This document shows positions 5,001 through 52,058 of a stretch of DNA of 64,000 nt, piece by piece; positions within the stretch are counted from its first letter, which is position 1; each line of letters begins with the position of its first letter. The DNA lies in assembly GCA_025800285.1 (NCBI GenBank), contig JAOXRX010000062.1:2346-66345 (forward strand). The letters run 5' to 3'. The stretch is from Alphaproteobacteria bacterium. Its GTDB lineage: Bacteria; Pseudomonadota; Alphaproteobacteria; JAOXRX01. Below the pieces are notes generated by a model. The model was given only the letters and a program-made list of their open reading frames with translations, searched no databases and had not been told where the DNA came from. The translations under genes were made by a program, and so were the position numbers.

Positions 5001-5456
5001 ATGAAAAAGCTTTTATTTATAGCACTTTTATTAATTAGTGCATGTGCTAAAAACATAGATTCTAATGTTTACAATGAAAGAGAAACTCTTCAGACAAGAA
5101 GCATTTTAAAAGGTAAGATTCTTCAAGTATTACCAGTTAAAGTAGAAGGTGATAAAGTTGTTGGAACAGGAAGTGGTGCTATAATCGGTGGACTTGCAGG
5201 ATCAACAGTTGGAGAAAATGATACAATTAAGGTTCTATCTGCATCTTTAGGAGCATTAATAGGCTCTGGCATAGGGAGAACTATCGATGGTTGGATTACA
5301 AACCAAGGCGGATATCAGTATATAATTGAATTAAGAGCTACAGGAGAAGTTATCTCTATAGTTCAAGGTGATGCTAATCCGTTAAAACCAGGTGATGAAG
5401 TTCTTCTTTTAGAGAACAGAAACCAGACTAGAGTTATAAAAAGTGAATTAAAATAA
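5001..5456 (+). CDS. Glycine-zipper outer-membrane lipoprotein (SlyB/Pcp/17-kDa-antigen-like).
   Basis: Signal peptide with lipobox LLISAC. Gly-zipper stretches GSGAIIGGLAGSTVG and LGALIGSGIG. Confidence 0.65.
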   Translation: MKKLLFIALLLISACAKNIDSNVYNERETLQTRSILKGKILQVLPVKVEGDKVVGTGSGAIIGGLAGSTVGENDTIKVLSASLGALIGSGIGRTIDGWITNQGGYQYIIELRATGEVISIVQGDANPLKPGDEVLLLENRNQTRVIKSELK

Positions 5457-7295: not shown

Positions 7296-7680
7296 GTCAT
7301 TTTGAGCGACTGCAAGGAGTCGAAAAATCTTTTTATCATGCTATCTTATTCTATCGTCATTCTGAGTGCAACGAAGAATCTTTTCATGCCTGTGTAATAT
7401 TGATTTACATCCTGCATCATAATGAGATTCTTCACTACCACACAAGTGTGTCCGTTTAGAATGACGGACTGAGTATTAAGGTAGTGTTTTTTTAGATAAT
7501 GTCATTCTGAGTGTAACGAAGAATCTTTTCATGCCTGTGTAATATTGATTTACATCCTGCATAACAATGAGATTCTTCACTACCACATAACTGTGTCCGT
7601 TCAGAATGACGACAAATAGAAAGTTTGGCACTTCTTTAGCATAGTGAGATTCTTATTCGCTCTGCTCATCAGAATAATGA
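7296..7680. repeat. Array of MITE-like palindromic elements. Two near-identical ~105-110 bp copies (7364-7468 and 7500-7612) sit between a degenerate left half (7296-7340) and a degenerate right half (7641-7680).
   Basis: The two copies are about 95% identical. Each has terminal inverted repeats gtcattctgagtg...(c/t)tcagaatgac. The flanking half-copies share the pattern tcatt-tgagcg...gaatga. Confidence 0.75.
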
Positions 7681-7712: not shown

Positions 7713-9035
7713 TTACTGTCTCAAAAAATCTTCCAATAGACTTTTAAACAATACTGGTATTTGTTTCATCTCTTTTAGCTCTCTTACATAGGATATTCTC
7801 ATTTGAGTTCTCCCCGGATTCTTAGATAATTTCTTCACACTATAAAATCCTAACATTGGAGATAAAAATAGAGTCCTATAATTCCCTTTTATTTTAACTT
7901 TACCATTTGCTGCACAAAACTTAATAAAGTCAACACAATTAAATTTTTCATCAACAATATTTCTAACATCTATAACGGAGTATAAAGAAGCTTCTGCTTT
8001 TGATACTATAATATCAGGCAGCTCTTTTTTAAAGCCCTCTTCTACAGCGGTTGCGATTTTATAATAATGCTTTCTTTGCTTCTCATACCATCTGTTTAAT
8101 TCAGATTTTTTAGCTTCAGCAAGAGCTCCAAATATATACTGTCCAATAGAATTTGCACATAAATTAGCAGTATTCTCTGAAACAGACTTTTCTATAAACT
8201 CCTTGTTATCGGTTATAAGAGCCCCTATTCTCAAACCGCAAGCATTCCACATTTTAGAGCTTGTCTCTATAGATATTCGCCTTCCTTCAATTCCAGGAAC
8301 TTCTTTATCTGTAATTCCCCAAATACTAATAACTTCTTTATCTTTAGTGTATATAAGCTCTCTATAAGCTTCATCACTTAGCATCCAAATATTATATTTA
8401 ACACATAACTTTGCTAAATCTATCATTTGTTGCTTAGTAAACTTTTGTCCAGTTGGGTTATCACAAGGTATCACCAATAAAGAGTTAGGCTTATGCTTCT
8501 TTATTGCTTTCTCTATTTCTTTGATACAAGGAATAGCAAAAAGCCCATCTTCATTCAGGTGCCTAGTAATAGAAACAGTTTTTCTGCCTAATCTTCTTGC
8601 TATAGACATATAGTTAGTATAAGCAGCATCCATTACCATAAGAGGTTTATTCTTTTTGCCTGCTTCTCCGCATATACCTAAAATAGCTAATTCCATGGCC
8701 TTTGAACCACCGTCTGTTATTTGAGTATAAAGATTACTAATATCAAACCCTTCATGTTTTAATATATTCAAAAAAGCATTGTTAGCCTCTTCTGTTCCTC
8801 TAGTACAAGTATAACTGTTTACCCCATTCGCAAAGGGTGATGTCTCATTACATAAATTAAACATCCTTTTTTGTAAAATCTTAGGCATAGGCAAAGATAC
8901 ATTACCTACAGATACATCTAATACATTAATTTCATTTCTATCTTCTCTTTTTGAGAATTCTAATCCAGACAATCTAATTGCACTTGGCTGTATAGAGTCA
9001 AAATATTTTGACATTCTTGGCATATTATTTTTCAT
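7713..9035 (-). CDS. PLP-dependent aminotransferase, class I/II fold (aspartate/aromatic or LL-DAP-type aminotransferase-like).
   Basis: 440 aa. N-terminal SAIRLSGLEF motif and an internal SSKMWNACGLRIGA PLP-lysine region typical of class I aminotransferases. Confidence 0.7.
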   Translation of the reverse strand: MKNNMPRMSKYFDSIQPSAIRLSGLEFSKREDRNEINVLDVSVGNVSLPMPKILQKRMFNLCNETSPFANGVNSYTCTRGTEEANNAFLNILKHEGFDISNLYTQITDGGSKAMELAILGICGEAGKKNKPLMVMDAAYTNYMSIARRLGRKTVSITRHLNEDGLFAIPCIKEIEKAIKKHKPNSLLVIPCDNPTGQKFTKQQMIDLAKLCVKYNIWMLSDEAYRELIYTKDKEVISIWGITDKEVPGIEGRRISIETSSKMWNACGLRIGALITDNKEFIEKSVSENTANLCANSIGQYIFGALAEAKKSELNRWYEKQRKHYYKIATAVEEGFKKELPDIIVSKAEASLYSVIDVRNIVDEKFNCVDFIKFCAANGKVKIKGNYRTLFLSPMLGFYSVKKLSKNPGRTQMRISYVRELKEMKQIPVLFKSLLEDFLRQ

Positions 9036-9180
9036 TTTTTTCTCGCTATATATTATATATTTTTCATACTTATAGCATAAAAAAATATTTTTTCAAACTA
9101 ATTTTAATGTAATCAGGCATATACTTTTTATGAATTTTATGATATAATACTCCATAATTAAAAAGGAATGTAAAAATATT

Positions 9181-9786
9181 ATGTCATCAGTATTAACAGT
9201 AGAAGATAAAAAGATAATTAATAGATTATCTGAAATTGAAAACTTTGATAATTACAAACCTGTATCTTCTAAAATTTTAAAACAAAAATTAAGGTATGAG
9301 TTTGAAAAAATACACTACACTTTAGACAGACTGTATAACTATAATAATGAAAAATTAGAGATAAAAAACTTTCCTATTCAAAAAATTAAGAACACTAAAC
9401 AAAATAAATATTATTTTTATATGAATCCTCATAAGAAATGTTTGCAATGGGTCTCTGAAGAATTAAGAAAAGATCATGGAGAACCAGATTTCATACCAGA
9501 AAATTGGAAATCAACAGTATTATTAGCAAATATACTAAAGATTTCTAACAATAGACTCTATACTGAAGTAAAAAGAATATATGAAAACAAAAACTCTTGG
9601 GACCCCCAAAAAGAGGGGTTTGAGTTTCCTATTAAAGAAGGTCAAAAAATTAATAAAAAATATACAAAAGGATATTATTTAAATCCTGATAAAAAAGTAA
9701 TGGAATGGTTTAAAAATATAGTAAACAAATCTCTTAAAAATAAAACTAAAAGAAGGGTTAATAATAGCTTTTACATAACTCCTTAA
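9181..9786 (+). CDS. Hypothetical lysine-rich protein, 201 aa, with two internal repeats of a YY(F/L)NP(H/D)KK-x-(L/M)(Q/E)W(V/F) motif.
   Basis: ORF with RBS AAGGAA. Internal repeats YYFYMNPHKKCLQWVSEELRK and KGYYLNPDKKVMEWFKNIVNK. No known domain. Confidence 0.5.
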   Translation: MSSVLTVEDKKIINRLSEIENFDNYKPVSSKILKQKLRYEFEKIHYTLDRLYNYNNEKLEIKNFPIQKIKNTKQNKYYFYMNPHKKCLQWVSEELRKDHGEPDFIPENWKSTVLLANILKISNNRLYTEVKRIYENKNSWDPQKEGFEFPIKEGQKINKKYTKGYYLNPDKKVMEWFKNIVNKSLKNKTKRRVNNSFYITP

Positions 9787-9857
9787 AAACTTAGCTGTAC
9801 TTTTATTAAATAATGTGATATTATTATATAATATTTTAATAAAAGGAGATAGGTAAA

Positions 9858-10181
9858 GTGAATAATATTATAATAAATCACAACTGGTTATCCTCTGAAG
9901 ATTTGGCTAAAAGATATAATATAAAAGTATTTGATGCCTTAGATGTAATAGATAAGTTAAAGAAACAAAAAGAAAATTTAGAATATATAAAAGTCGGTAG
10001 AAAAAAGAAAACAGATTTTGTTAATAAAACTTTTATTTCTCCAGAAGAAGACTTTTTAAAGAAAGTAAAAAAAGAATTACAAATAATTCATAAGAAGAGA
10101 ATAGCTATATCACAAAAAATAAAAATAACAAAACAAAAAAGTTTAAGCAAAAAAAGAAATAGAGAGAAGGAAAAAATATAA
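9858..10181 (+). CDS. Hypothetical lysine-rich protein, 107 aa, GTG start.
   Basis: RBS AAGGAGA 7 nt upstream of the GTG. The region is extremely A-rich. No known domain. Confidence 0.4.
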   Translation: MNNIIINHNWLSSEDLAKRYNIKVFDALDVIDKLKKQKENLEYIKVGRKKKTDFVNKTFISPEEDFLKKVKKELQIIHKKRIAISQKIKITKQKSLSKKRNREKEKI

Positions 10182-10292
10182 AAATTTAGTTCCTGAAGAT
10201 AGCTTATCTGCAAATGATTTAGAGAAAATTACCAAAATTAGAGCAAACACAATTAGAAAAATTCTAAAAGAATTATATAAATTGAAAGGTTC

Positions 10293-10751
10293 ATGGGGGG
10301 CTCAAAAACTTTTCCCTTCCCTATAGTAAAAGGCTTAAAACTAAGAACTTCTGGTTATGAAGGGTTGTATATATTGGCAGATAAAAAATCAAAGAATTGG
10401 GCTTATAAGCAATTAGGAGCTAACATAAAATCATACATAGATGATTCTTTTTTAAGTTATAAAGATATATCTGAAAAAACAGGTTTAGATACCGAGCTAA
10501 TCAAAAACTTTCTAAGAAATTCATTTGAAAATAAAGAAAACTTAGATAAGTATTTTAAGAACTCTATAGTAAAAGGAAGAAAAAAACATCATTCTTCTAC
10601 ACAAATTTATTTAGACTCTAGCGAAGAGGCCTTAAACTGGTTCAAGCAAGAAATAAAAGTAAAAAGACCTTCAATTGAAGAGGCTAAAAAGACTAAAATA
10701 GTACCTATCTTAAACACAAAAAAAGTTATATCTGAAAGTCTTGTTATATAA
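10293..10751 (+). CDS. Hypothetical lysine-rich protein, 152 aa, sharing the SSEEALNWFKQEIK motif with the 9181-9786 ORF.
   Basis: ORF with RBS GAAAGG. Contains IYLDSSEEALNWFKQEIKVKR, a module similar to those in the neighbouring gene. Confidence 0.45.
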   Translation: MGGSKTFPFPIVKGLKLRTSGYEGLYILADKKSKNWAYKQLGANIKSYIDDSFLSYKDISEKTGLDTELIKNFLRNSFENKENLDKYFKNSIVKGRKKHHSSTQIYLDSSEEALNWFKQEIKVKRPSIEEAKKTKIVPILNTKKVISESLVI

Positions 10752-10753
10752 TT

Positions 10754-11185
10754 TTAGTTAAGAACTAAATCGTTCTGTTTATTTATATTATCTTTACCGC
10801 TATTAGCAATGTTAATAATCTGCTTATTGTATTCTTTCATTAATTTTGGATTATTTCTAATTCTCTTTTTATAATTATTGATTCTTAATAAGCTATTTAC
10901 ACTACCTTTGTTTAAATTACCTTTTAAAAATGACTTTAATAAATCTTTATTTTTACTTTTAATAATTTTTCTTATAAAAAAAACTTCATAATCTTTAATT
11001 ACAGGTTTTTTAGCATCTAATCTTTCTTTATAAGAGCTTAAACACTGTTTGTATTCACTGTTTTCTTCTAACAACAGATTAAACTTTTTTTCTTGTCCTA
11101 CATTTATAATTTTAGGAGAAGCTGCTACAACAATAATAGCACCTAAAACAAGAGTTACATTTGATTTTAATATTTGTTTTAACAT
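10754..11185 (-). CDS. Hypothetical secreted or membrane-anchored lysine-rich protein, 143 aa.
   Basis: N-terminal hydrophobic segment VTLVLGAIIVVAASP (signal peptide or anchor). No known domain. Confidence 0.45.
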   Translation of the reverse strand: MLKQILKSNVTLVLGAIIVVAASPKIINVGQEKKFNLLLEENSEYKQCLSSYKERLDAKKPVIKDYEVFFIRKIIKSKNKDLLKSFLKGNLNKGSVNSLLRINNYKKRIRNNPKLMKEYNKQIINIANSGKDNINKQNDLVLN

Positions 11186-11292
11186 TTTTTCTTCCTTTTT
11201 TTACAGTATTTTATCATAAAAAAGAGTAAAAATCAACATAAGGTGGTAAATTTACCACCTTATGTTATTAAAAATTAAAAAATAAATTAACT

Positions 11293-12744
11293 TTAACCTA
11301 ATTTTTCTTTAAGTAATTTATTTGCAATACCTGGGTTTGCTTTACCTTGAGACTTTTTCATAACCTGTCCAACAAAGAAACCAAATATTCTATCATTACC
11401 ACCTTGATAGTCAGCTACTTGAGTTTGATTTTCAGCAATAACCTCATCTACAATAGCTTCAATAGCTCCAGTGTCTGTAACCTGTTTCAAGCCTTTTTCT
11501 TCAACTATAGTAGAAGGATCTTTGCTTGTTTCAAACATAACTTCAAACACTTGTTTTGCTATCTTACCAGATATAGTGTTGTCCTCAATTAACCCCACTA
11601 ATTCACCTAATTGTTTCGCTGATATAGGGCTATTTTCTAACTCAATTAAGTTTTTGTTTAATATCCCTAATAATTCTGAAACTAACCAATTAGAAACAAG
11701 TTTACCATCTTTCCCTGCAGCAGCTTCTTCATAAAAATCTGCACGGTACTTCTCTTGAGTTAAGATATCTGCATCATAATCTGTAATTCCATATTCTTTT
11801 ACAAATCGTTCTCTTTTAGCATCTGGAAGCTCTGGTAAAGTTTTTCTAACATCCTCAATAAACTCATCAGTAATTACTAAAGGAAGCAAGTCTGGATCTG
11901 GGAAGTATCTATAATCATGAGCATCTTCTTTTGATCTCATAACTCTAGTTTCTCCTTTGTTTATATCCCATAGAAGAGTACATTGATCGATAGTTCCACC
12001 AGCTTCAAGAGTTTTAACTTGATACATAGACTCATAAGCAATTGCATTTTCAATATGCTTAATAGAGTTCATATTTTTAATTTCACGACGAGTTCCTAAT
12101 CCTTCACCCACTCTATTAACAGACACATTAACATCAGCTCTCATAGAACCTTGATCCATATTACCATCACATGTTTCTAGATATCTAACTATGGATCTTA
12201 GTTTTCTAAAGTAAGCACCAGCCTCTTCCGCAGAATGAATATCTGGCTTAGAAACAATTTCCATTAGACAAACACCTGAACGATTTAAATCAATAAATGT
12301 TTTTCTTGGATGCATGTCATGAATTGATTTACCAGCATCTTGCTCGATGTGTAACTGCTCAATTCTAACTTTTTTAATATAGTCTCCCATATTAACCTCG
12401 ACAACACCCTCTCCTACTAGAGCTTGTCCAGCTGGCTGAGTAATCTGATAACCTTGAGGTAAATCAGCATAGAAATAATTTTTTCTAGCGAAAACTGATT
12501 TTTTATTAATAATAGCATTAAGACCAAGCCCTGTTTTAACAGCTTGTCTAACACATTCCATATTTACAACTGGAAGCATCCCCGGCATAGCAGCATCAAC
12601 TAATGAAACATTGCTATTTGGTTCTGCACCGAATGTTGTTGGAGCTCCTGAGAACAGTTTACTATTTGAAATAACTTGAGCATGCACTTCAAGCCCGATA
12701 ACTATTTCCCAATCTCCAGTATTTCCTTTTATAATTTTTCTCAT
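11293..12744 (-). CDS. gatB: Aspartyl/glutamyl-tRNA(Asn/Gln) amidotransferase subunit B.
   Basis: Full-length GatB architecture: N-terminal [13 protein letters not shown], conserved central region, and a C-terminal GatB/YqeY domain. Confidence 0.95.
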
Positions 12745-12770: not shown

Positions 12771-12836
12771 TAATACTCTCCCCCTGTGGGAGGGTCGAAA
12801 CTAGTTTTGCTAGTTTCGGGGAGGGGTGCAATTTTC
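12771..12836. repeat. GC-rich hairpin repeat, copy 1 (ctctccccctgtgggaggg...cgaaactag-ttttg-ctagtttcg...gggagggg). It overlaps the 3' end of the DUF559 gene.
   Basis: Nested inverted repeats. It resembles the copies at 13205-13272 and 13300-13390 and stands out as a GC-rich island in AT-rich DNA. Confidence 0.5.
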
Positions 12837-13211
12837 ATTGCATATTACATCATTTATTCTTTCAATGCAACCCTCAATATTTTCTAATATATCGTTGTTC
12901 CAAAATCTTAAAACTTTAAAATCACGATCTCTCAAATCTTTATCCCTTTGTTTGTCCTTTTCGCTACCACAATGTTGGCTACCATCTAATTCTATAATCA
13001 ACTTTCTTTCTAAACAAATAAAGTCAACAATGTATTTATTGTCTAAGACATACTGTCTACGAAATTTAACTCCCAATTGTTTATTTCTAATAAACTTCCA
13101 CAATATAATTTCTTCTTTTGTTGATGCCTTTCTCATATTTCTTGAAAATGTTTTGATATTTTCTTTTATTTGAGTATGACAAGGATTATCATATATAGAG
13201 CTATTAACCAT
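12810..13211 (-). CDS. DUF559 / Vsr-like (very-short-patch-repair endonuclease fold) endonuclease-domain protein, 133 aa.
   Basis: C-terminal motif FKVLRFWNNDILENIEGCIERI, typical of the DUF559 restriction-endonuclease-like family. GC-rich hairpin repeats overlap both termini. Confidence 0.65.
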   Translation of the reverse strand: MVNSSIYDNPCHTQIKENIKTFSRNMRKASTKEEIILWKFIRNKQLGVKFRRQYVLDNKYIVDFICLERKLIIELDGSQHCGSEKDKQRDKDLRDRDFKVLRFWNNDILENIEGCIERINDVICNENCTPPRN

Positions 13212-13437: not shown

Positions 13438-14160
13438 TTATTTTTTATAAAAAGGTGCTATAACCTTTTTAGTTTCCCAACTAGAATCTCCTGTTAAAGA
13501 TAAAATCTTATTAGTAAGCTTAACCACTTCTTTTATTTCTTTATTTTTAAATGATGTGTGAAAAACTTTACTAAATTCTTTATACATTTTTTCATCTTGC
13601 TTATTTAAAGCTCTTAATCTATGTTTTTCAACTCTAGTAGTTGACCACATTTTGTTATATCTTAAATAAAAATCAGAAAGAGTCCCATACAACAAACTAA
13701 GAGAAGTATAAAAATCACTTTCATTCTTTGCACCAATAACATCATCTCTAGCATCAGCTATTATATGTTTATAAGTGTATATTTCTTGTTTAGACAATAC
13801 TTTAGGACCTTTTTTAAGAAGTTTCTTAGCTTTGTTCTGTATTCTTTTACTTACTTTGTTTTCTATCATAGGTTTAGCAAAACCTAACATATATAAAGCT
13901 CCACCGGTCCCCAAGTTCCTAGCTCTTTCAAACCATAAATTAAGGCTTTTTTCAGAATTAAAGAATAATTCAACAGGGAAATCTTTATAATAAAAACTTT
14001 TTCTATATGCTTTAGGTAAATCTTTATCTGACATAATTATTTGTATATCTATATCAGAAGCTTTTGTTTCTAATCCACTTGCAAAAGACCCGCATAAAAA
14101 TACAGTTTTAGCTTTTGGATATTTCTTAATTATATCATTAACTATTTCTAAATGTTTCAT
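13438..14160 (-). CDS. Nucleotidyltransferase of the Pol-beta superfamily (KNTase / aminoglycoside-nucleotidyltransferase-like; N-terminal NT domain plus C-terminal helical domain), 240 aa.
   Basis: Motif LCGSFASGLETKASDIDIQII (GS-x9-DxD signature). The start codon lies 1 nt from the gatA stop. RBS AGAGGG. Confidence 0.65.
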   Translation of the reverse strand: MKHLEIVNDIIKKYPKAKTVFLCGSFASGLETKASDIDIQIIMSDKDLPKAYRKSFYYKDFPVELFFNSEKSLNLWFERARNLGTGGALYMLGFAKPMIENKVSKRIQNKAKKLLKKGPKVLSKQEIYTYKHIIADARDDVIGAKNESDFYTSLSLLYGTLSDFYLRYNKMWSTTRVEKHRLRALNKQDEKMYKEFSKVFHTSFKNKEIKEVVKLTNKILSLTGDSSWETKKVIAPFYKK

Positions 14161-14161
14161 A

Positions 14162-15637
14162 TTACCCTCTTATATCTGGAGTTAATTCAAAGCCTGCTAC
14201 TCTTTCAAGAGCATCTGCTACTTTTATAACTGTTTCTTCATCAAAAGCTTTACCTATTAATTGAACACCAATTGGTAATCCATTCTCTGCTTTAGCAACT
14301 GGAACTGAAATACCTGGCAAACCAGCCATTGATGTAGGAATTGTAAATACATCCCCCATATACATTTCAACTGGAGACAACTCATCTTCAATTGCATATG
14401 CTGTTGTTGGAGTAACTGGAGTTAATATAGCATCTACTTTCTCAAATGCTTCTTTAAAGTCTTGAGATATAAGAGTTCTAACTTTTTGAGCTTTTGTATA
14501 GTAAGCATCATAATATCCTGCAGAAAGAACATATGTTCCAACCAATATTCTTCTTCTTACTTCTTCACCAAAGCCTTCTGCTCTAGTTTTTGCATACATA
14601 TCATCCAGAGAAGAAACTTTCTCTTCGGTTCTGTGTCCATATCTAACACCATCATATCTAGCTAAGTTAGCTGAGGCTTCAGCTGGAGCTACGATATAAT
14701 ATGTTGAAACAGCATATTTAGTATGAGGTAAAGAAATATCTATTATTTCCGCACCTTGTTTTTTTAATAACTCTGCTGCTTTATCCCATGCTGATTTAAT
14801 TTCAGTTGACATATTATCACTTCTGTATTCAGCTGGAATACCAATTTTCATTCCAGCTATATCTTGCCCTATCATAGCAGATAAGTTTGGAACTGGCAAG
14901 TTAACTGATGTAGAGTCCTTTGGATCAAACCCCATCATGTTCTCTAGCATTAAAGCTGTGTCAGCAACTGTTCTACACATTGCACCTGATTGATCAAGAG
15001 AACTAGCAAAAGCTACAACTCCCCACCTTGAACATCTACCATATGTTGGTTTCATTCCCACAATACCTGTAAATGATGCAGGTTGTCTAATTGAGCCACC
15101 TGTATCAGTTCCTGTAGCTCCAATTGCTGCGAAAGAAGCAACTGCTGCCGCAGAACCACCTGATGATCCTCCTGGGACAATATGAGCATCTGTTCTTGTT
15201 TTATCTTTCCATGGGTTCATAACTGGTCCAAAATAAGAAGTCTTATTTGATCCTCCCATAGCATATTCATCATTAGAAACTTTTCCTAATAAAACCACAC
15301 CGGCATCAGCAAGATTTTGAGATACTGTTGATTCATATTCAGGAACAAAATTCTCTAGCATTCTTGATGCTGCTGTTGTTTTAATACCTTTTGTGCAGAA
15401 TAAATCTTTCATTGCTATTGGCAAACCATCCATTGGCAAAGCTTTACCTTCAGCTCTTCTTTTATCTGATTCTTCTGCTTGTTTTAAAGCTACATCTCTA
15501 GTTTCTGTTATGTAAGAATTTAACTCTTTTGTAGCATCCATAGCATCAAAATAAGCTTTAACTAGTTCAACAGCTGTAAAATCTTTGTTTTCTAGCCCTT
15601 TTAGAGCATCAATCATTGTTAGTTCATTTAATTTCAT
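14162..15637 (-). CDS. gatA: Glutamyl-tRNA(Gln) amidotransferase subunit A.
   Basis: Amidase signature region [12 protein letters not shown] and full-length GatA. Confidence 0.95.
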
Positions 15638-19431: not shown

Positions 19432-20121
19432 ATGAAACTTTCAAAAAAAAATTTATTAAAAGCTAGTGTTTCTGGTGCTATTGCCATATCTTTTATATAT
19501 GGTGGCAAAGCCGTTTATGAAAAATACTTCAAAATAGAAAGAATTAATTTAACTACTGAAATTTTAAGAGCATACAATGCAGACAAGATAAAACATTGCG
19601 AAGAATTTAGAAGCGATGTATATATGTGTTATAAAAAAGCCCCAACTATAGGATATGGAACTAAACTCCCTTTAACAAAAGAAGAGATGAAAATAATTAA
19701 TATAAATACTAAAAATCCTAAAAAAATTAAAAAAGCTCAAGCTGAAATGCTATTATTTAAAAGATTAAACGATAGCAAGAGATATTTGTCCAAATATTCA
19801 TTTTATAAAAATGCTCCAGATAGTGTGAAAATGGCATTAACAGATATGTGCTACAATATGGGAATTGGCAGTCTATTAACTTTTAAAAACATGATAAGAT
19901 GCATAAAGAGTAAAGATTTTGATCAAGCCTCAAAAGAATGTATGAATAGCAACTATGGAAGAGAATTAACCACTAGAGCTTTATCAAACTCTTTATTAAT
20001 TAAAAGAGCATGTTCTTTTAATGAATTACTAAATCAAGCTCCAAAAATTGAGAGACCAGATATTAAAGGCATAAACAAAATAGACTTTCCTTTAGATGTT
20101 TGTATAAATAACCTATATTAA
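19432..20121 (+). CDS. GH24-family lysozyme-like muramidase with an N-terminal signal anchor.
   Basis: Motif CEEFRSDVYMCYKKAPTIGYGTKL (phage-lysozyme E...D...TIGYG pattern). N-terminal hydrophobic segment ASVSGAIAISFIYGG. Confidence 0.55.
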   Translation: MKLSKKNLLKASVSGAIAISFIYGGKAVYEKYFKIERINLTTEILRAYNADKIKHCEEFRSDVYMCYKKAPTIGYGTKLPLTKEEMKIININTKNPKKIKKAQAEMLLFKRLNDSKRYLSKYSFYKNAPDSVKMALTDMCYNMGIGSLLTFKNMIRCIKSKDFDQASKECMNSNYGRELTTRALSNSLLIKRACSFNELLNQAPKIERPDIKGINKIDFPLDVCINNLY

Positions 20122-36499: not shown

Positions 36500-36573
36500 G
36501 GCGCGGTGGCGGAGAGGCTACGCAGAGGTCTGCAAAACCTTGTACACCGGTTCGAGTCCGGTCCGCGCCTCCA
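36500..36573 (+). tRNA. tRNA-Cys (GCA).
   Basis: 74-nt cloverleaf: GGCGCGG acceptor stem, anticodon loop cuGCAaa, T-arm GGTTCGAGTCC, and an encoded CCA. Confidence 0.9.
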
Positions 36574-49008: not shown

Positions 49009-49094
49009 TGGTGGCCTCGGCCGGACTTGAACCGGCACGTCCAAAGGACACACGATTTTAAGTCGTGGGCGTCTACCAATTCCGCCACGAGGCC
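49009..49094 (-). tRNA. tRNA-Leu (TAA) with a long variable arm.
   Basis: On the reverse complement: GGCCTCG acceptor stem, anticodon loop cuUAAaa, long variable arm, T-arm GGTTCAAGTCC, and CCA. Confidence 0.85.
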
Positions 49095-51586: not shown

Positions 51587-51684
51587 TTTTCTAACTTTCT
51601 TTTGGTTTTATTTCAAATAGAGTTAATTTATATACTTTTTTTAAGAATAAGTCAAGAGAAAAGACTAAGTATATAAATAAAAAA

Positions 51685-52058
51685 GTAATGGACGGGCTGT
51701 AAGCCGGGTTCTGTCAAAGATAACTATTCATCTAGATTATACATTACTGCATAATTCTTGCAACCTACCTATCGGTTATAAGGTGTGGGAATACACCTAA
51801 AGAACGAATCTTTTCCCGTTAATTTGGTCTTGCTCCTGATAGGGTTTACCTTGCCTGTAACTATCACTAGCACAGCGGTGAGCTCTTACCTCACCTTTTC
51901 ACCATTACCAACAAAAGCTGGCAGTCTATTCTCTGTGGCACTTTCCCGTAGATTACTCCAGCTGGCCGTTAACCAGTATCATATTCCCATGGAGCCCGGA
52001 CTTTCCTCAAGCACTAGGTTTCCCAATTGTACCCGCAGTTATCACCCATCCATTTAAC
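51685..52058 (-). ncRNA. rnpB: RNase P RNA (bacterial type A).
   Basis: The reverse complement carries the universally conserved blocks GGAAAGTCCGGGCTCCAT, GGTGAAAAGGTGAGGTAAGAGCTCACC, AGGAGCAAGACCAAAT and CTAGATGAATAG...GACAGAACCCGGCTTACAG. Its P1 pairs with the 5' end. The ORF at 51785-52057 is antisense to this RNA. Confidence 0.85.

What the first reader, a model, noticed from the sequence alone, without database searches (positions are those of the whole stretch)
9040..11290. Extremely A-rich island of four lysine-rich orphan genes sharing a repeated YxNP(D/H)KK-x(3)-W(F/V) module
Between the aminotransferase and gatB lie four ORFs: three on the plus strand with good RBSs and one secreted-type on the minus strand. 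They are far more A- and K-rich than the flanking housekeeping genes and have no recognisable domains. The first protein carries two copies of a module of the form YY(F/L)NP(H/D)KK..(L/M)(Q/E)W(V/F)..(E/N)(L/I)..K, and a third copy occurs in the third protein. This points to a paralogous, modular family, possibly secreted or host-interacting, or a novel nucleic-acid-binding repeat. The composition suggests either horizontal acquisition or rapid evolution.
Basis: seen in the sequence. Interest (0 to 1): 0.6.

Follow-up and report, generated by a model that had tools for sequence, protein, structure and literature searches.

The report
Tandem winged-helix repeat proteins, one broken
The "four orphan genes" are three genes: two neighbouring genes for lysine-rich proteins built from repeats of a previously uncatalogued ~80-residue winged-helix (DNA-binding-type) module, one of them broken into two ORFs in this strain, plus an unrelated small membrane or secreted protein. 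It is a new but unsurprising family.

Summary
The A- and K-rich island is real, and the repeated YxNPxKK...W motif is real and statistically supported. The motif is the most conserved part (second wing strand plus following helix) of a ~75-85 aa module. The window holds five copies of this module, not three.

ORF1 (201 aa) has two modules. "ORF2" and "ORF3" are fragments of one gene. A 98-99% identical strain (three assemblies) and a 73%-identical relative both carry a single intact 457/459-aa, five-module gene there. The window allele has +1 A in an A-run, +2 G in a G-run and a 483-bp deletion between 23-nt direct repeats.

AlphaFold2 models are confident (pLDDT 90.6 and 87.4). Each module is predicted as a winged helix-turn-helix. 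Structure matches are weak but are mostly DNA-binding wHTH proteins (MerR/BldC/Xis/Par/RacA, MarR/ArsR). No Pfam, NCBIfam, PHROG or PADLOC family matches. Only about six true relatives exist among 1.84 billion representative proteins.

GC3 is native, synteny is conserved and dN/dS is 0.14-0.33, so horizontal transfer and rapid evolution are not supported. Secretion is suggested only for ORF4.

Most likely function (inferred, not shown): covalent arrays of wHTH modules binding extended DNA as architectural or regulatory proteins. This is a new family and architecture of a very well known fold, of modest interest.

The parts
9181..9786 (+). Gene 1: 201-aa lysine-rich protein (pI 9.7) with two tandem wHTH-type modules
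   Evidence: ORF. Two module matches. AF2 model has pLDDT 87.4 and pTM 0.73. Orthologue P0004 is 55% identical with dN/dS 0.22. The near-identical strain differs at 5 aa, pN/pS 0.22.
9232..9480 (+). Module 1a (ORF1 residues 18-100); contains YYFYMNPHKKCLQWVSEELRK
   Evidence: (leave-one-out E = 5e-7)
9478..9738 (+). Module 1b (ORF1 residues 100-186); contains GYYLNPDKKVMEWFKNIVNK
   Evidence: (leave-one-out E = 5e-11). The single-module AF2 model has pLDDT 90.6: strand, helix 13-20, helix 24-36, hairpin 52-57/64-68, helix 72-86.
9858..10751 (+). Gene 2, degraded allele. The remnant of a five-module, 457-aa gene, here split into 'ORF2' and 'ORF3' and lacking 483 bp.
   Evidence: An intact 457-aa ORF sits at this position in L087, L088 and L089, which are 98-99.4% identical in DNA. 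An intact 459-aa orthologue, P0002, is in L002.
9858..10181 (+). 'ORF2' (107 aa, GTG start). The N-terminal fragment, containing module 1 of gene 2 (9858-10094) and a basic linker. It ends at a premature stop caused by the A-run frameshift.
   Evidence: (leave-one-out E = 1.6e-3)
10149..10155 (+). A7 homopolymer. It has one extra A relative to the intact allele (A6), giving frameshift 1.
10153..10299 (+). Unannotated coding remnant in another frame, with no start codon. It encodes the HTH half of module 2 of gene 2 (KEIERRKKYKNLVPEDSLSANDLEKITKIRANTIRKILKELYKLKGSWG).
   Evidence: z = 4.6 alone, z = 13 when joined to the ORF3 N-terminus. It is 62% identical to P0002 with dN/dS 0.14. It is identical in protein sequence to the intact allele.
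10295..10300 (+). G6 homopolymer. It has two extra G relative to the intact allele (G4), giving frameshift 2, which returns to the original frame.
10293..10751 (+). 'ORF3' (152 aa), starting from an internal ATG. It holds the wing half of module 2, a module 3/5 hybrid (10425-10673) and the C-terminal tail of gene 2.
10608..10630 (+). Deletion junction. This is the single remaining copy of a 23-nt exact direct repeat (TATTTAGACTCTAGCGAAGAGGC) that occurs twice, 483 bp apart, in the intact allele. Modules 4 and 5 are lost in frame.
   Evidence: The repeat is shorter than k = 31, the k-mer size I recall (from memory, not checked here) for the independent Logan assembly that reproduces the junction.
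10754..11185 (-). ORF4: 143-aa lysine-rich protein with an N-terminal hydrophobic segment (residues 10-24), likely a signal peptide or membrane anchor. It is unrelated to the module family.
   Evidence: no similarity; Kyte-Doolittle hydropathy 2.35. Its only homologue is the 99%-identical copy in the sister strain.
11234..11267 (-). Perfect 16-nt-arm hairpin plus T-run. It is the likely gatB terminator, so ORF4 would have its own promoter.
   Evidence: I21

Best explanation
The island holds three genes.

Genes 1 and 2 are adjacent paralogues, probably co-transcribed. Both are built solely from tandem copies of a ~75-85 aa module that is a divergent winged helix-turn-helix: a short strand, two helices, a basic beta-hairpin wing (K-G-x-K ... 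Y-Y-L) and a flanking helix. Gene 1 has two modules. Gene 2 has five in its intact form.

In the strain of this window, gene 2 is inactivated or truncated by two homopolymer frameshifts and a repeat-mediated 483-bp deletion. This produces the apparent ORF2 and ORF3.

Inferred mechanism: each module places its second long helix in a DNA major groove and its lysine-rich wing on the adjacent backbone or minor groove. A covalent array of 2-6 modules would then cover several successive turns of DNA. That would make these proteins architectural (nucleoid-associated) proteins or regulators reading direct repeats in an AT-rich genome. It would be a single-chain version of the head-to-tail multimers formed by small wHTH proteins such as BldC or Xis.

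ORF4 is a separate small exported or membrane-anchored protein of unknown role.

Shown: the repeat architecture, the gene structure, the lesions, purifying selection and the rarity of the family. Predicted: the fold. Inferred: DNA binding and its mode.
For: Repeats:
-.

One gene, not two:
- Intact 457-aa ORFs occur in three assemblies of a 98-99.4% identical strain.
- An intact 459-aa orthologue occurs in the same gene order in a lineage 73% identical in DNA.
- The inter-ORF stretch has no start codon, yet is 62% identical to the orthologue with dN/dS 0.14.

Lesions are real:
- An independent Logan assembly of the same run is identical over 3,662 bp.
- The junction repeat is only 23 nt.

Fold:
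- AF2 pLDDT is 90.6 for one module and 87.4 (pTM 0.73) for ORF1.
- Foldseek hits are all wHTH regulators.
- The module profile matches the PDB wHTH protein ST1889 (2d1h) across HTH plus wing, E = 0.007.
- The distant member P0010 passes the Pfam HTH_24 threshold, E = 1.4e-9.
- A repaired gene 2 fragment hits the MarR-type phrog_1687, E = 2.4e-4.

Basic charge:
- pI is 9.7-10.1 and K+R is 20-23%.

Precedents:
- BldC binds direct repeats as head-to-tail multimers (PMC5859096).
- TraN is a single chain with two wHTH domains inserted in adjacent major grooves (PMC6158623).

Functional genes:
- dN/dS is 0.14-0.33 and pN/pS between strains is 0.22.
Against: - No experiment or direct computation shows DNA binding.
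- wHTH domains can also bind RNA or proteins.
- The predicted recognition helix varies between modules, and no candidate target repeats were found near the locus.
- Gene 2 is disrupted in one strain, so it is dispensable at least there.
- I could not inspect the model coordinates, so the relative geometry of successive modules is unknown.
Confidence: 0.6

Rival explanations
1. The module proteins are secreted effectors (nucleomodulins) of an intracellular or host-associated alphaproteobacterium. They would be delivered to a eukaryotic host, where the wHTH arrays bind host chromatin.
For: - The source run SRR15960039 is a coral-associated metagenome.
- The genome is AT-rich (about 30% GC).
- The proteins are very basic, lineage-restricted and repeat-built, as many effectors are.
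- The family varies in repeat number between relatives (2, 3, 5 and 6 modules).
Against: - The module proteins have no N-terminal signal or hydrophobic segment.
- No secretion-system genes are adjacent.
- The closest GatB relatives are free-living or predatory-type alphaproteobacteria at only 60-67% identity. This gives no evidence of an obligate intracellular lifestyle.
- Distant family members occur in Patescibacteria-type genomes next to helicases, which points to a role on the bacterium's own DNA.
- Purifying selection (dN/dS about 0.2) is not the diversifying pattern typical of effectors.
Confidence: 0.08
2. The island is a remnant of a mobile element (prophage, ICE or plasmid insertion), and the module proteins are Xis/RDF-like or partition-type accessory DNA-binding proteins of that element.
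For: - Overall GC is lower than in the flanks.
- One gene is decaying.
- Nearby genes (DUF559 endonuclease, nucleotidyltransferase) look like selfish insertions between gatB and gatA.
Against: - GC3 is the same as in the host genes.
- There is no integrase, tRNA or flanking direct repeat.
- tblastn finds no match in 50,697 phage or 72,556 plasmid records, nor in IMG/VR.
- There are no PHROG hits.
- The locus keeps the same position next to the aminotransferase in a lineage 73% identical in DNA.
Confidence: 0.07
3. The modules bind RNA or act as protein-protein scaffolds rather than binding dsDNA, as other tandem winged-helix arrays do (for example the SelB C-terminal domains, cited from my own knowledge).
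For: - The winged-helix fold is functionally versatile.
- The predicted recognition helix is poorly conserved across modules.
- Distant members sit beside SF2 helicases (DEAD/ResIII, SNF2), some families of which act on RNA.
Against: - Sequence and fold neighbours with wHTH topology are dsDNA binders.
- The conserved basic wing (K-G-x-K) is typical of DNA backbone or minor-groove contact.
- The SNF2 helicase plus methyltransferase neighbour is a DNA-acting type.
Confidence: 0.15
4. ORF2 and ORF3 are artefacts of sequencing or assembly (homopolymer miscalls and repeat collapse), and the real genome carries the intact five-module gene.
For: - Both frameshifts lie in homopolymers (A7, G6), and the deletion lies between direct repeats.
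- The three indels sum to +3.
- The out-of-frame stretch is identical in protein sequence to the intact allele.
Against: - Two assemblies of the run (the NCBI MAG and Logan) agree base for base over 3,662 bp.
- The exact repeat at the junction is 23 nt. This is shorter than the k = 31 that I recall the Logan pipeline using (from memory, not checked here). If so, junction-spanning k-mers must be present in the reads.
- Logan assemblies of two other runs resolved the full-length allele across the same repeats.
Confidence: 0.1

Closest known systems
BldC and related small MerR-like or excisionase-type wHTH proteins (Xis, RdfS, pSK1 Par DNA-binding domain, RacA DNA-binding domain)
   Same: - The domain is a small HTH plus beta-hairpin wing, with no effector domain.
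[quoted passage not shown] RdfS-type wHTH proteins oligomerise on DNA (PMC11963761, abstract). A covalent tandem array would mimic this arrangement.
   Different: - Sequence similarity is not significant, and there are no MerR_1 or HTH_17 Pfam hits.
- Here the units are fused in one polypeptide (2-6 per chain). Each carries a ~15-residue insertion between the second helix and the wing, and an extra flanking helix.
- DNA binding is untested.
TraN of Enterococcus plasmid pIP501 (PDB 4p0y)
   Different: - TraN has exactly two domains, packed as a pseudo-dimer around a beta-barrel-like interface.
- The family here has up to six modules in series and no detectable sequence relationship to TraN.
- It has no plasmid or T4SS context.
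MarR / TrmB / Lrs14 / ArsR-type wHTH regulators (for example ST1889, PDB 2d1h; AbfR2, 6cmv; ZitR; SmtB)
   Same: - They give the best profile-to-sequence match. 2d1h has E = 0.007 and aligns the HTH and the wing 'GKKIGRPKYYYS' with the module's 'KG.K....YYL.P'.
- All the top Foldseek hits are of this type.
- There are sporadic Pfam HTH_24 and TrmB hits to individual modules of distant members.
   Different: - Those proteins are single-domain and work as homodimers on palindromes, usually with dimerisation or ligand-binding helices.
- None of the window's modules reaches any Pfam threshold.
- TM-scores are only about 0.45-0.5.
Tandem-repeat DNA readers such as TAL effectors (own knowledge)
   Same: The protein is built almost entirely of tandem DNA-binding-type repeats whose number varies between relatives.
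   Different: - Modules are 75-85 aa wHTH domains with 15-30% mutual identity. They are not near-identical 33-35 aa helical repeats.
- There is no repeat-variable-residue pattern.
- The repeats are detectable only at protein level, so they are ancient.

Membership tests
Winged helix-turn-helix fold (superfamily level) | Topology: helix-turn-helix followed by a two-stranded beta-hairpin wing, with a short strand before the HTH | tested here: met
   AF2 single module has pLDDT 90.6: strand 11-12, H13-20, H24-36, E52-57, E64-68, H72-86. Both modules of ORF1 show the same pattern. This is a prediction, not an experiment.
Winged helix-turn-helix fold (superfamily level) | Significant structural similarity to solved wHTH domains | tested here: inconclusive
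   [not shown]
Pfam/NCBIfam HTH families (HTH_24, MarR, TrmB, MerR_1, HTH_17) | Sequence score above the curated family threshold | tested here: not met
   The window's proteins and modules have no hit. Only the distant relative P0010 passes HTH_24, 37.8 bits against a cut-off of 21.9.
MerR / excisionase (BldC, Xis) family | Two-helix HTH directly followed by the wing, in a compact ~50-70 aa domain; sequence signature of MerR_1 or HTH_17 | tested here: not met
   [not shown]
Horizontally acquired genomic island | Atypical synonymous-site composition, mobility genes or att-like flanks, patchy presence at the locus | tested here: not met
   GC3 is 0.15-0.22 against 0.18 +/- 0.03 for the window. 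There is no integrase, tRNA or flanking repeat. Synteny is conserved in a relative 73% identical in DNA. No phage, plasmid or IMG/VR matches.
Sec-secreted proteins | N-terminal signal peptide (basic n-region, hydrophobic h-region) | tested here: not met
   For ORF1 and the 457-aa protein, maximum 15-residue hydropathy is 0.65-0.72 and none is N-terminal. ORF4 alone has MLKQILK + VTLVLGAIIVVAASP (hydropathy 2.35). No dedicated signal-peptide predictor was available.
Type IV / type I secretion substrates | C-terminal translocation signal and a cognate secretion system in the genome | not testable with these tools
   Only 64 kb of the genome is visible, and no predictor is available.
Known anti-phage defence systems (PADLOC) | Match to a PADLOC protein model | tested here: not met
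   ORF1, the intact 457-aa protein and ORF4 have no hit. The neighbours of distant members hit only generic helicase models.
TALE-like tandem repeat DNA readers | Near-identical ~33-35 aa repeats with hypervariable residue pairs | tested here: not met
   Modules are 75-85 aa with 15-30% pairwise identity.

The most novel reading that the evidence does not exclude
The family could be a natural poly-winged-helix DNA reader. Each structurally conserved module would carry a different recognition helix, and the array would read a long composite DNA site module by module, as zinc-finger or TALE arrays do but built from wHTH units. Alternatively, it could be exported to act on host (coral or protist) chromatin. 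Repeat-number changes caused by recombination between modules, as seen in this window's 483-bp deletion, together with homopolymer slippage, would then tune or switch target range between strains.
Probability: 0.07. Interest if true: 0.7.

Novelty: new variant of a known kind. Interest (0 to 1): 0.3.

Why it matters
If the inference holds, this is an uncatalogued protein family in which 2-6 winged-helix domains are fused head to tail with nothing else attached. That architecture would be a covalent counterpart of the cooperative wHTH filaments of BldC or Xis. It could serve as a nucleoid-organising or direct-repeat-reading protein in small, AT-rich, uncultured bacteria (a coral-associated alphaproteobacterium, and Patescibacteria-type genomes).

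In practice, the result corrects the annotation. Two "hypothetical proteins" of the deposited MAG are fragments of one gene. It also gives a clean natural example of gene decay by homopolymer slippage plus repeat-mediated deletion between nearly identical strains.

It does not touch a long-standing open question. The fold is among the commonest in bacteria.

Tried and rejected
- Pfam, NCBIfam, PHROG and PADLOC scans of all island proteins gave nothing significant.
- The search for homologous proteins found only ORF1 itself. With the 32-module alignment it found nothing, which looks like a word-prefilter failure because even the input proteins were not retrieved. With ORF4 it found only the sister-strain copy.
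It found nothing with ORF1+P0004.
- Scans of metagenome contigs and viral contigs with the 457/459-aa alignment, and of metagenome contigs with the 23-mer, found nothing.
- tblastn of P0002 against phage and plasmid records found no match.
- The afdb50 fold library was unavailable.
- P0005 (1,624 aa, 29 stretches) was rejected as a spurious hit that sums scores over a perfectly repeated unrelated sequence.
- A search for DNA repeats or candidate operator arrays in and around the island found only weak A-rich matches.
- The helicase neighbours of distant members P0008 and P0010 were examined as a possible functional link. They give only generic SF2/SNF2 domain hits, and the window has no equivalent neighbour.
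- Lineage placement from GatB was only approximate. The best matches are 60-67% identical, with Micavibrio-like MAGs on top.
Full report
**1. What is at the coordinates**

The window is AT-rich: 35.6% A, 33.9% T and 30.5% G+C. Between a class I/II aminotransferase (7713-9035, minus strand) and gatB (11293-12744, minus strand) lie four ORFs:
- ORF1, 9181-9786 (+), 201 aa.
- ORF2, 9858-10181 (+), 107 aa, GTG start.
- ORF3, 10293-10751 (+), 152 aa.
- ORF4, 10754-11185 (-), 143 aa.

The island is 43.6% A. Its proteins are 16-23% lysine, against 10.7 +/- 3.2% for the other 57 long ORFs of the window, and have pI 9.7-10.1. Pfam, NCBIfam and PHROG scans give nothing significant. The raw observation is therefore correct.

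**2. The motif is real, but it is part of a larger module present five times**

Aligning the proteins shows that YxNP(D/H)KK...W(F/V) is the C-terminal part of a ~75-85 aa unit. The unit reads roughly: (I/V)P-x-x-W-x-S-x-x-(D/E)-L ... helix ... F-P-I-x-K-G-x-K ... Y-(Y/L)-L-x-P-x-K-K-x-L-x-W.

Statistical support:
- Smith-Waterman scores against 500 composition-preserving shuffles give z = 5.6 for the two halves of ORF1. They give z = 13.1 for ORF1's second half against the repaired N-terminus of ORF3.
- In leave-one-out HMM tests, each of the five modules ranks first against about 1,000 six-frame background segments of the window. E-values are 5e-7, 5e-11, 1.6e-3, 1.7e-13 and 7e-6, while the best background E is about 0.1-0.4.
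- There is no further copy elsewhere in the 64 kb.
- ORF4 is unrelated (z = 0.3 and 1.1).

**3. ORF2 and ORF3 are fragments of one gene**

The 111 nt between ORF2 and ORF3 are coding in another frame. The stretch 10153-10299 encodes KEIERRKKYKNLVPEDSLSANDLEKITKIRANTIRKILKELYKLKGSWG. This is the HTH half of a module whose wing half is the N-terminus of ORF3. The stretch has no start codon.

A profile of the window's modules was searched against 1.84 billion representative proteins and returned only nine hits. Among them are P0004 (197 aa, 55% identical to ORF1) and P0002 (459 aa, five modules). The two lie side by side next to an aminotransferase on one contig from SRR30515161. The window aligns to that contig at 73% DNA identity. 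P0002 aligns colinearly with ORF2, then the frame-1 stretch, then ORF3.

ORF4 has a 99%-identical twin in a second MAG (locus tag N4A43_01665). In three assemblies of that strain (JGI 3300045489/NCBI, Logan SRR21418663 and SRR21418661) the gene order is gatB, ORF4, one intact 457-aa gene, the 201-aa gene, aminotransferase. DNA identity to the window is 98.0-99.4%. The intact 457-aa protein has five modules.

Relative to that strain, the window allele carries three lesions:
- One extra A in an A-run (A7 at 10149-10155).
- Two extra G in a G-run (G6 at 10295-10300).
- A 483-bp in-frame deletion. Its junction is a 23-nt exact direct repeat (10608-10630), which in the intact allele encodes the YLDSSEEA of both module 3 and module 5.

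The first frameshift creates the stop that ends ORF2. ORF3 starts at an internal ATG.

Are the lesions real? An independent Logan assembly of the source run SRR15960039 is identical to the window over 3,662 bp. The junction repeat is 23 nt. From memory, not checked here, the Logan pipeline assembles at k = 31. If so, the junction cannot come from graph collapse. I therefore regard the lesions as real alleles (about 0.9), but read mapping is needed to settle it.

**4. Selection and origin**

Against the distant orthologues, Nei-Gojobori dN/dS values are as follows (dS is near saturation, so they are rough):

| Segment | dN/dS |
|---|---|
| ORF1 | 0.22 |
| ORF2 part | 0.33 |
| Frame-1 stretch | 0.14 |
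| ORF3 part | 0.21 |

Between the two near-identical strains, pN/pS is 0.22 for ORF1, 0.10 for the aminotransferase and 0.08 for gatB. These are real genes under purifying selection, not fast-evolving ones.

GC3 of the island genes (0.15-0.22) matches the window (0.18 +/- 0.03). The GC deficit lies in codon positions 1 and 2 (0.24-0.31 against 0.375), so it comes from Lys/Asn/Ile-rich proteins. In addition:
- Synteny is conserved in the distant relative.
- There is no integrase, tRNA or flanking repeat.
- There are no matches in phage, plasmid or IMG/VR collections.

Horizontal acquisition is therefore not supported.

**5. What the module is**

AlphaFold2 on one module, with the 32-module alignment as input, gives mean pLDDT 90.6. 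The predicted elements are a short strand, helix 13-20, helix 24-36, a loop with a short helix, a beta-hairpin at 52-57/64-68, and helix 72-86. The full ORF1 model gives pLDDT 87.4 and pTM 0.73. It shows the same unit twice, each flanked by a helix: H7-17, module 1, H85-99, module 2, H171-193. This is winged helix-turn-helix topology.

Structure searches agree in kind but are weak:
- Foldseek gives a best E of 0.1 and TM of 0.45-0.5, with all hits MarR, ArsR, Lrs14 or TFE-type wHTH proteins.

Sequence evidence points the same way:
- The module profile matches the wHTH protein ST1889 (2d1h) at E = 0.007 across HTH plus wing.
- The distant member P0010 passes the Pfam HTH_24 threshold.
- The repaired gene 2 fragment touches a MarR-type PHROG at E = 2.4e-4.

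None of the window's own modules reaches any curated family threshold. My conclusion is a divergent, uncatalogued family within the wHTH fold. It is not a member of the MerR, Xis or MarR families.

**6. Distribution**

True relatives found:

| Protein | Size and modules | Source |
|---|---|---|
| P0002 | 459 aa, 5 modules | SRR30515161 (orthologue of gene 2) |
| P0004 | 197 aa, 2 modules | SRR30515161 (orthologue of gene 1) |
| P0007 | 290 aa, 3 modules | SRR30515161, a separate contig |
| P0009 | 704 aa, 5 modules plus about 330 aa of unknown C-terminus | JGI metagenome |
| P0008 | 477 aa, 6 modules | 682-kb contig |
| P0010 | 441 aa, 6 modules | Patescibacteria MAG |

P0005 is a spurious repeat artefact.

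P0008 is followed by a fused SNF2 helicase-methyltransferase. P0010 is preceded by a split DEAD/ResIII helicase. That is two cases only, with no counterpart in the window, so it is no more than a hint that the family acts on nucleic acid.

The host of the window is a deep-branching alphaproteobacterium. GatB is at most 67% identical to any GTDB species representative, with Micavibrio-like MAGs on top. It comes from a coral-associated metagenome.

**7. How it most likely works (inference)**

Each module would use its second long helix and its basic wing to contact one major groove and the neighbouring backbone or minor groove. Fusing 2-6 modules would let one chain cover several successive turns of DNA. 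Two precedents support this picture:
- BldC binds direct repeats as head-to-tail multimers of variable length (PMC5859096).
- TraN carries two wHTH domains in one chain and places them in adjacent major grooves (PMC6158623).

High positive charge, the absence of any other domain and an AT-rich genome fit an architectural (nucleoid-associated) protein or a regulator that reads direct repeats.

The adjacent two-module and five-module genes are separated by 71 nt with no predicted terminator between them. The one terminator-like hit inside ORF1 is on the opposite strand. They are probably co-transcribed. The five-module gene is dispensable in at least one strain.

ORF4 is separate. It has its own upstream region after the gatB terminator hairpin at 11234-11267 and an N-terminal hydrophobic segment. 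Its only homologue is the sister-strain copy. It is probably a small exported or membrane-anchored protein. Its role is unknown.

**8. Rivals**

The rival readings are a secreted nucleomodulin, a mobile-element remnant, an RNA or protein binder, and an assembly artefact. Each is set out in its own section with evidence and refutation tests. None is excluded outright, and none is favoured by the data.

**9. Verdict**

The composition and the repeat are real. The gene count and the extent of the repeat were wrong.
The modular family and the nucleic-acid-binding repeat stand. Horizontal transfer, rapid evolution and secretion of the module proteins do not.
- Novelty: a new family and an unusual poly-wHTH architecture within a very common fold.
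- Interest is modest at 0.3. It would rise only if modular DNA reading or host targeting were demonstrated.

Noticed in passing
window 7356-7466 and 7501-7611: Two tandem copies (95% identical, 145-nt spacing) of a 111-nt element lie in the gltX-aminotransferase spacer. The element has terminal inverted repeats (GTCATTCTGA...TTAGAATGAC) and folds into a long hairpin (-33 kcal/mol). It looks like a MITE or REP-like palindromic element. There are no other copies in the window. The sister-strain contig L087 ends in the same element.
   Followed up: partly
window 12810-13211 (-) and 13438-14160 (-): A DUF559 (Vsr-like endonuclease-fold) gene and a Pol-beta-type nucleotidyltransferase gene are wedged between gatB and gatA (Amidase, 14162-15637). 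The arrangement is conserved with 100% protein identity in the sister strain. They may be selfish or toxin-antitoxin-type insertions inside the gatAB cluster.
   Followed up: partly
L087 (sister strain), positions corresponding to window 10608-10630 and 483 bp downstream: In the intact 457-aa allele, modules 3 and 5 share a near-identical 57-nt stretch (23 nt exact) encoding YLDSSEEALNW, although the modules are otherwise only about 20-30% identical. This suggests a recent local gene-conversion patch, which then served as the substrate for the deletion seen in the window.
   Followed up: partly
L003 8001-12621 and L005 6403-9326: Distant six-module family members (P0008, P0010) sit directly next to SF2 helicase genes. 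One is an SNF2 helicase fused to a methyltransferase. The other is a split DEAD/ResIII plus Helicase_C pair. With only two cases, this may be a functional link or a coincidence.
   Followed up: partly
window 19432-20121 (+): A 229-aa ORF with a Phage_lysozyme domain (E = 1.4e-12) sits among housekeeping genes, next to cytidylate kinase.
   Followed up: no
window 5001-5456 (+): A 151-aa ORF has a weak, sub-threshold match to the glycine-zipper 2TM domain (Rick_17kDa_Anti, E = 9e-5, 22.8 bits against a cut-off of 24.2). This domain is typical of small outer-membrane lipoproteins of Rickettsia-like bacteria.
   Followed up: no
window 51684-52053 (-), 36500-36570 (+), 49012-49094 (-): RNase P RNA (class A, 275.7 bits) and two tRNA genes. 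None lies near the island, so there is no tRNA-linked integration site.
   Followed up: yes
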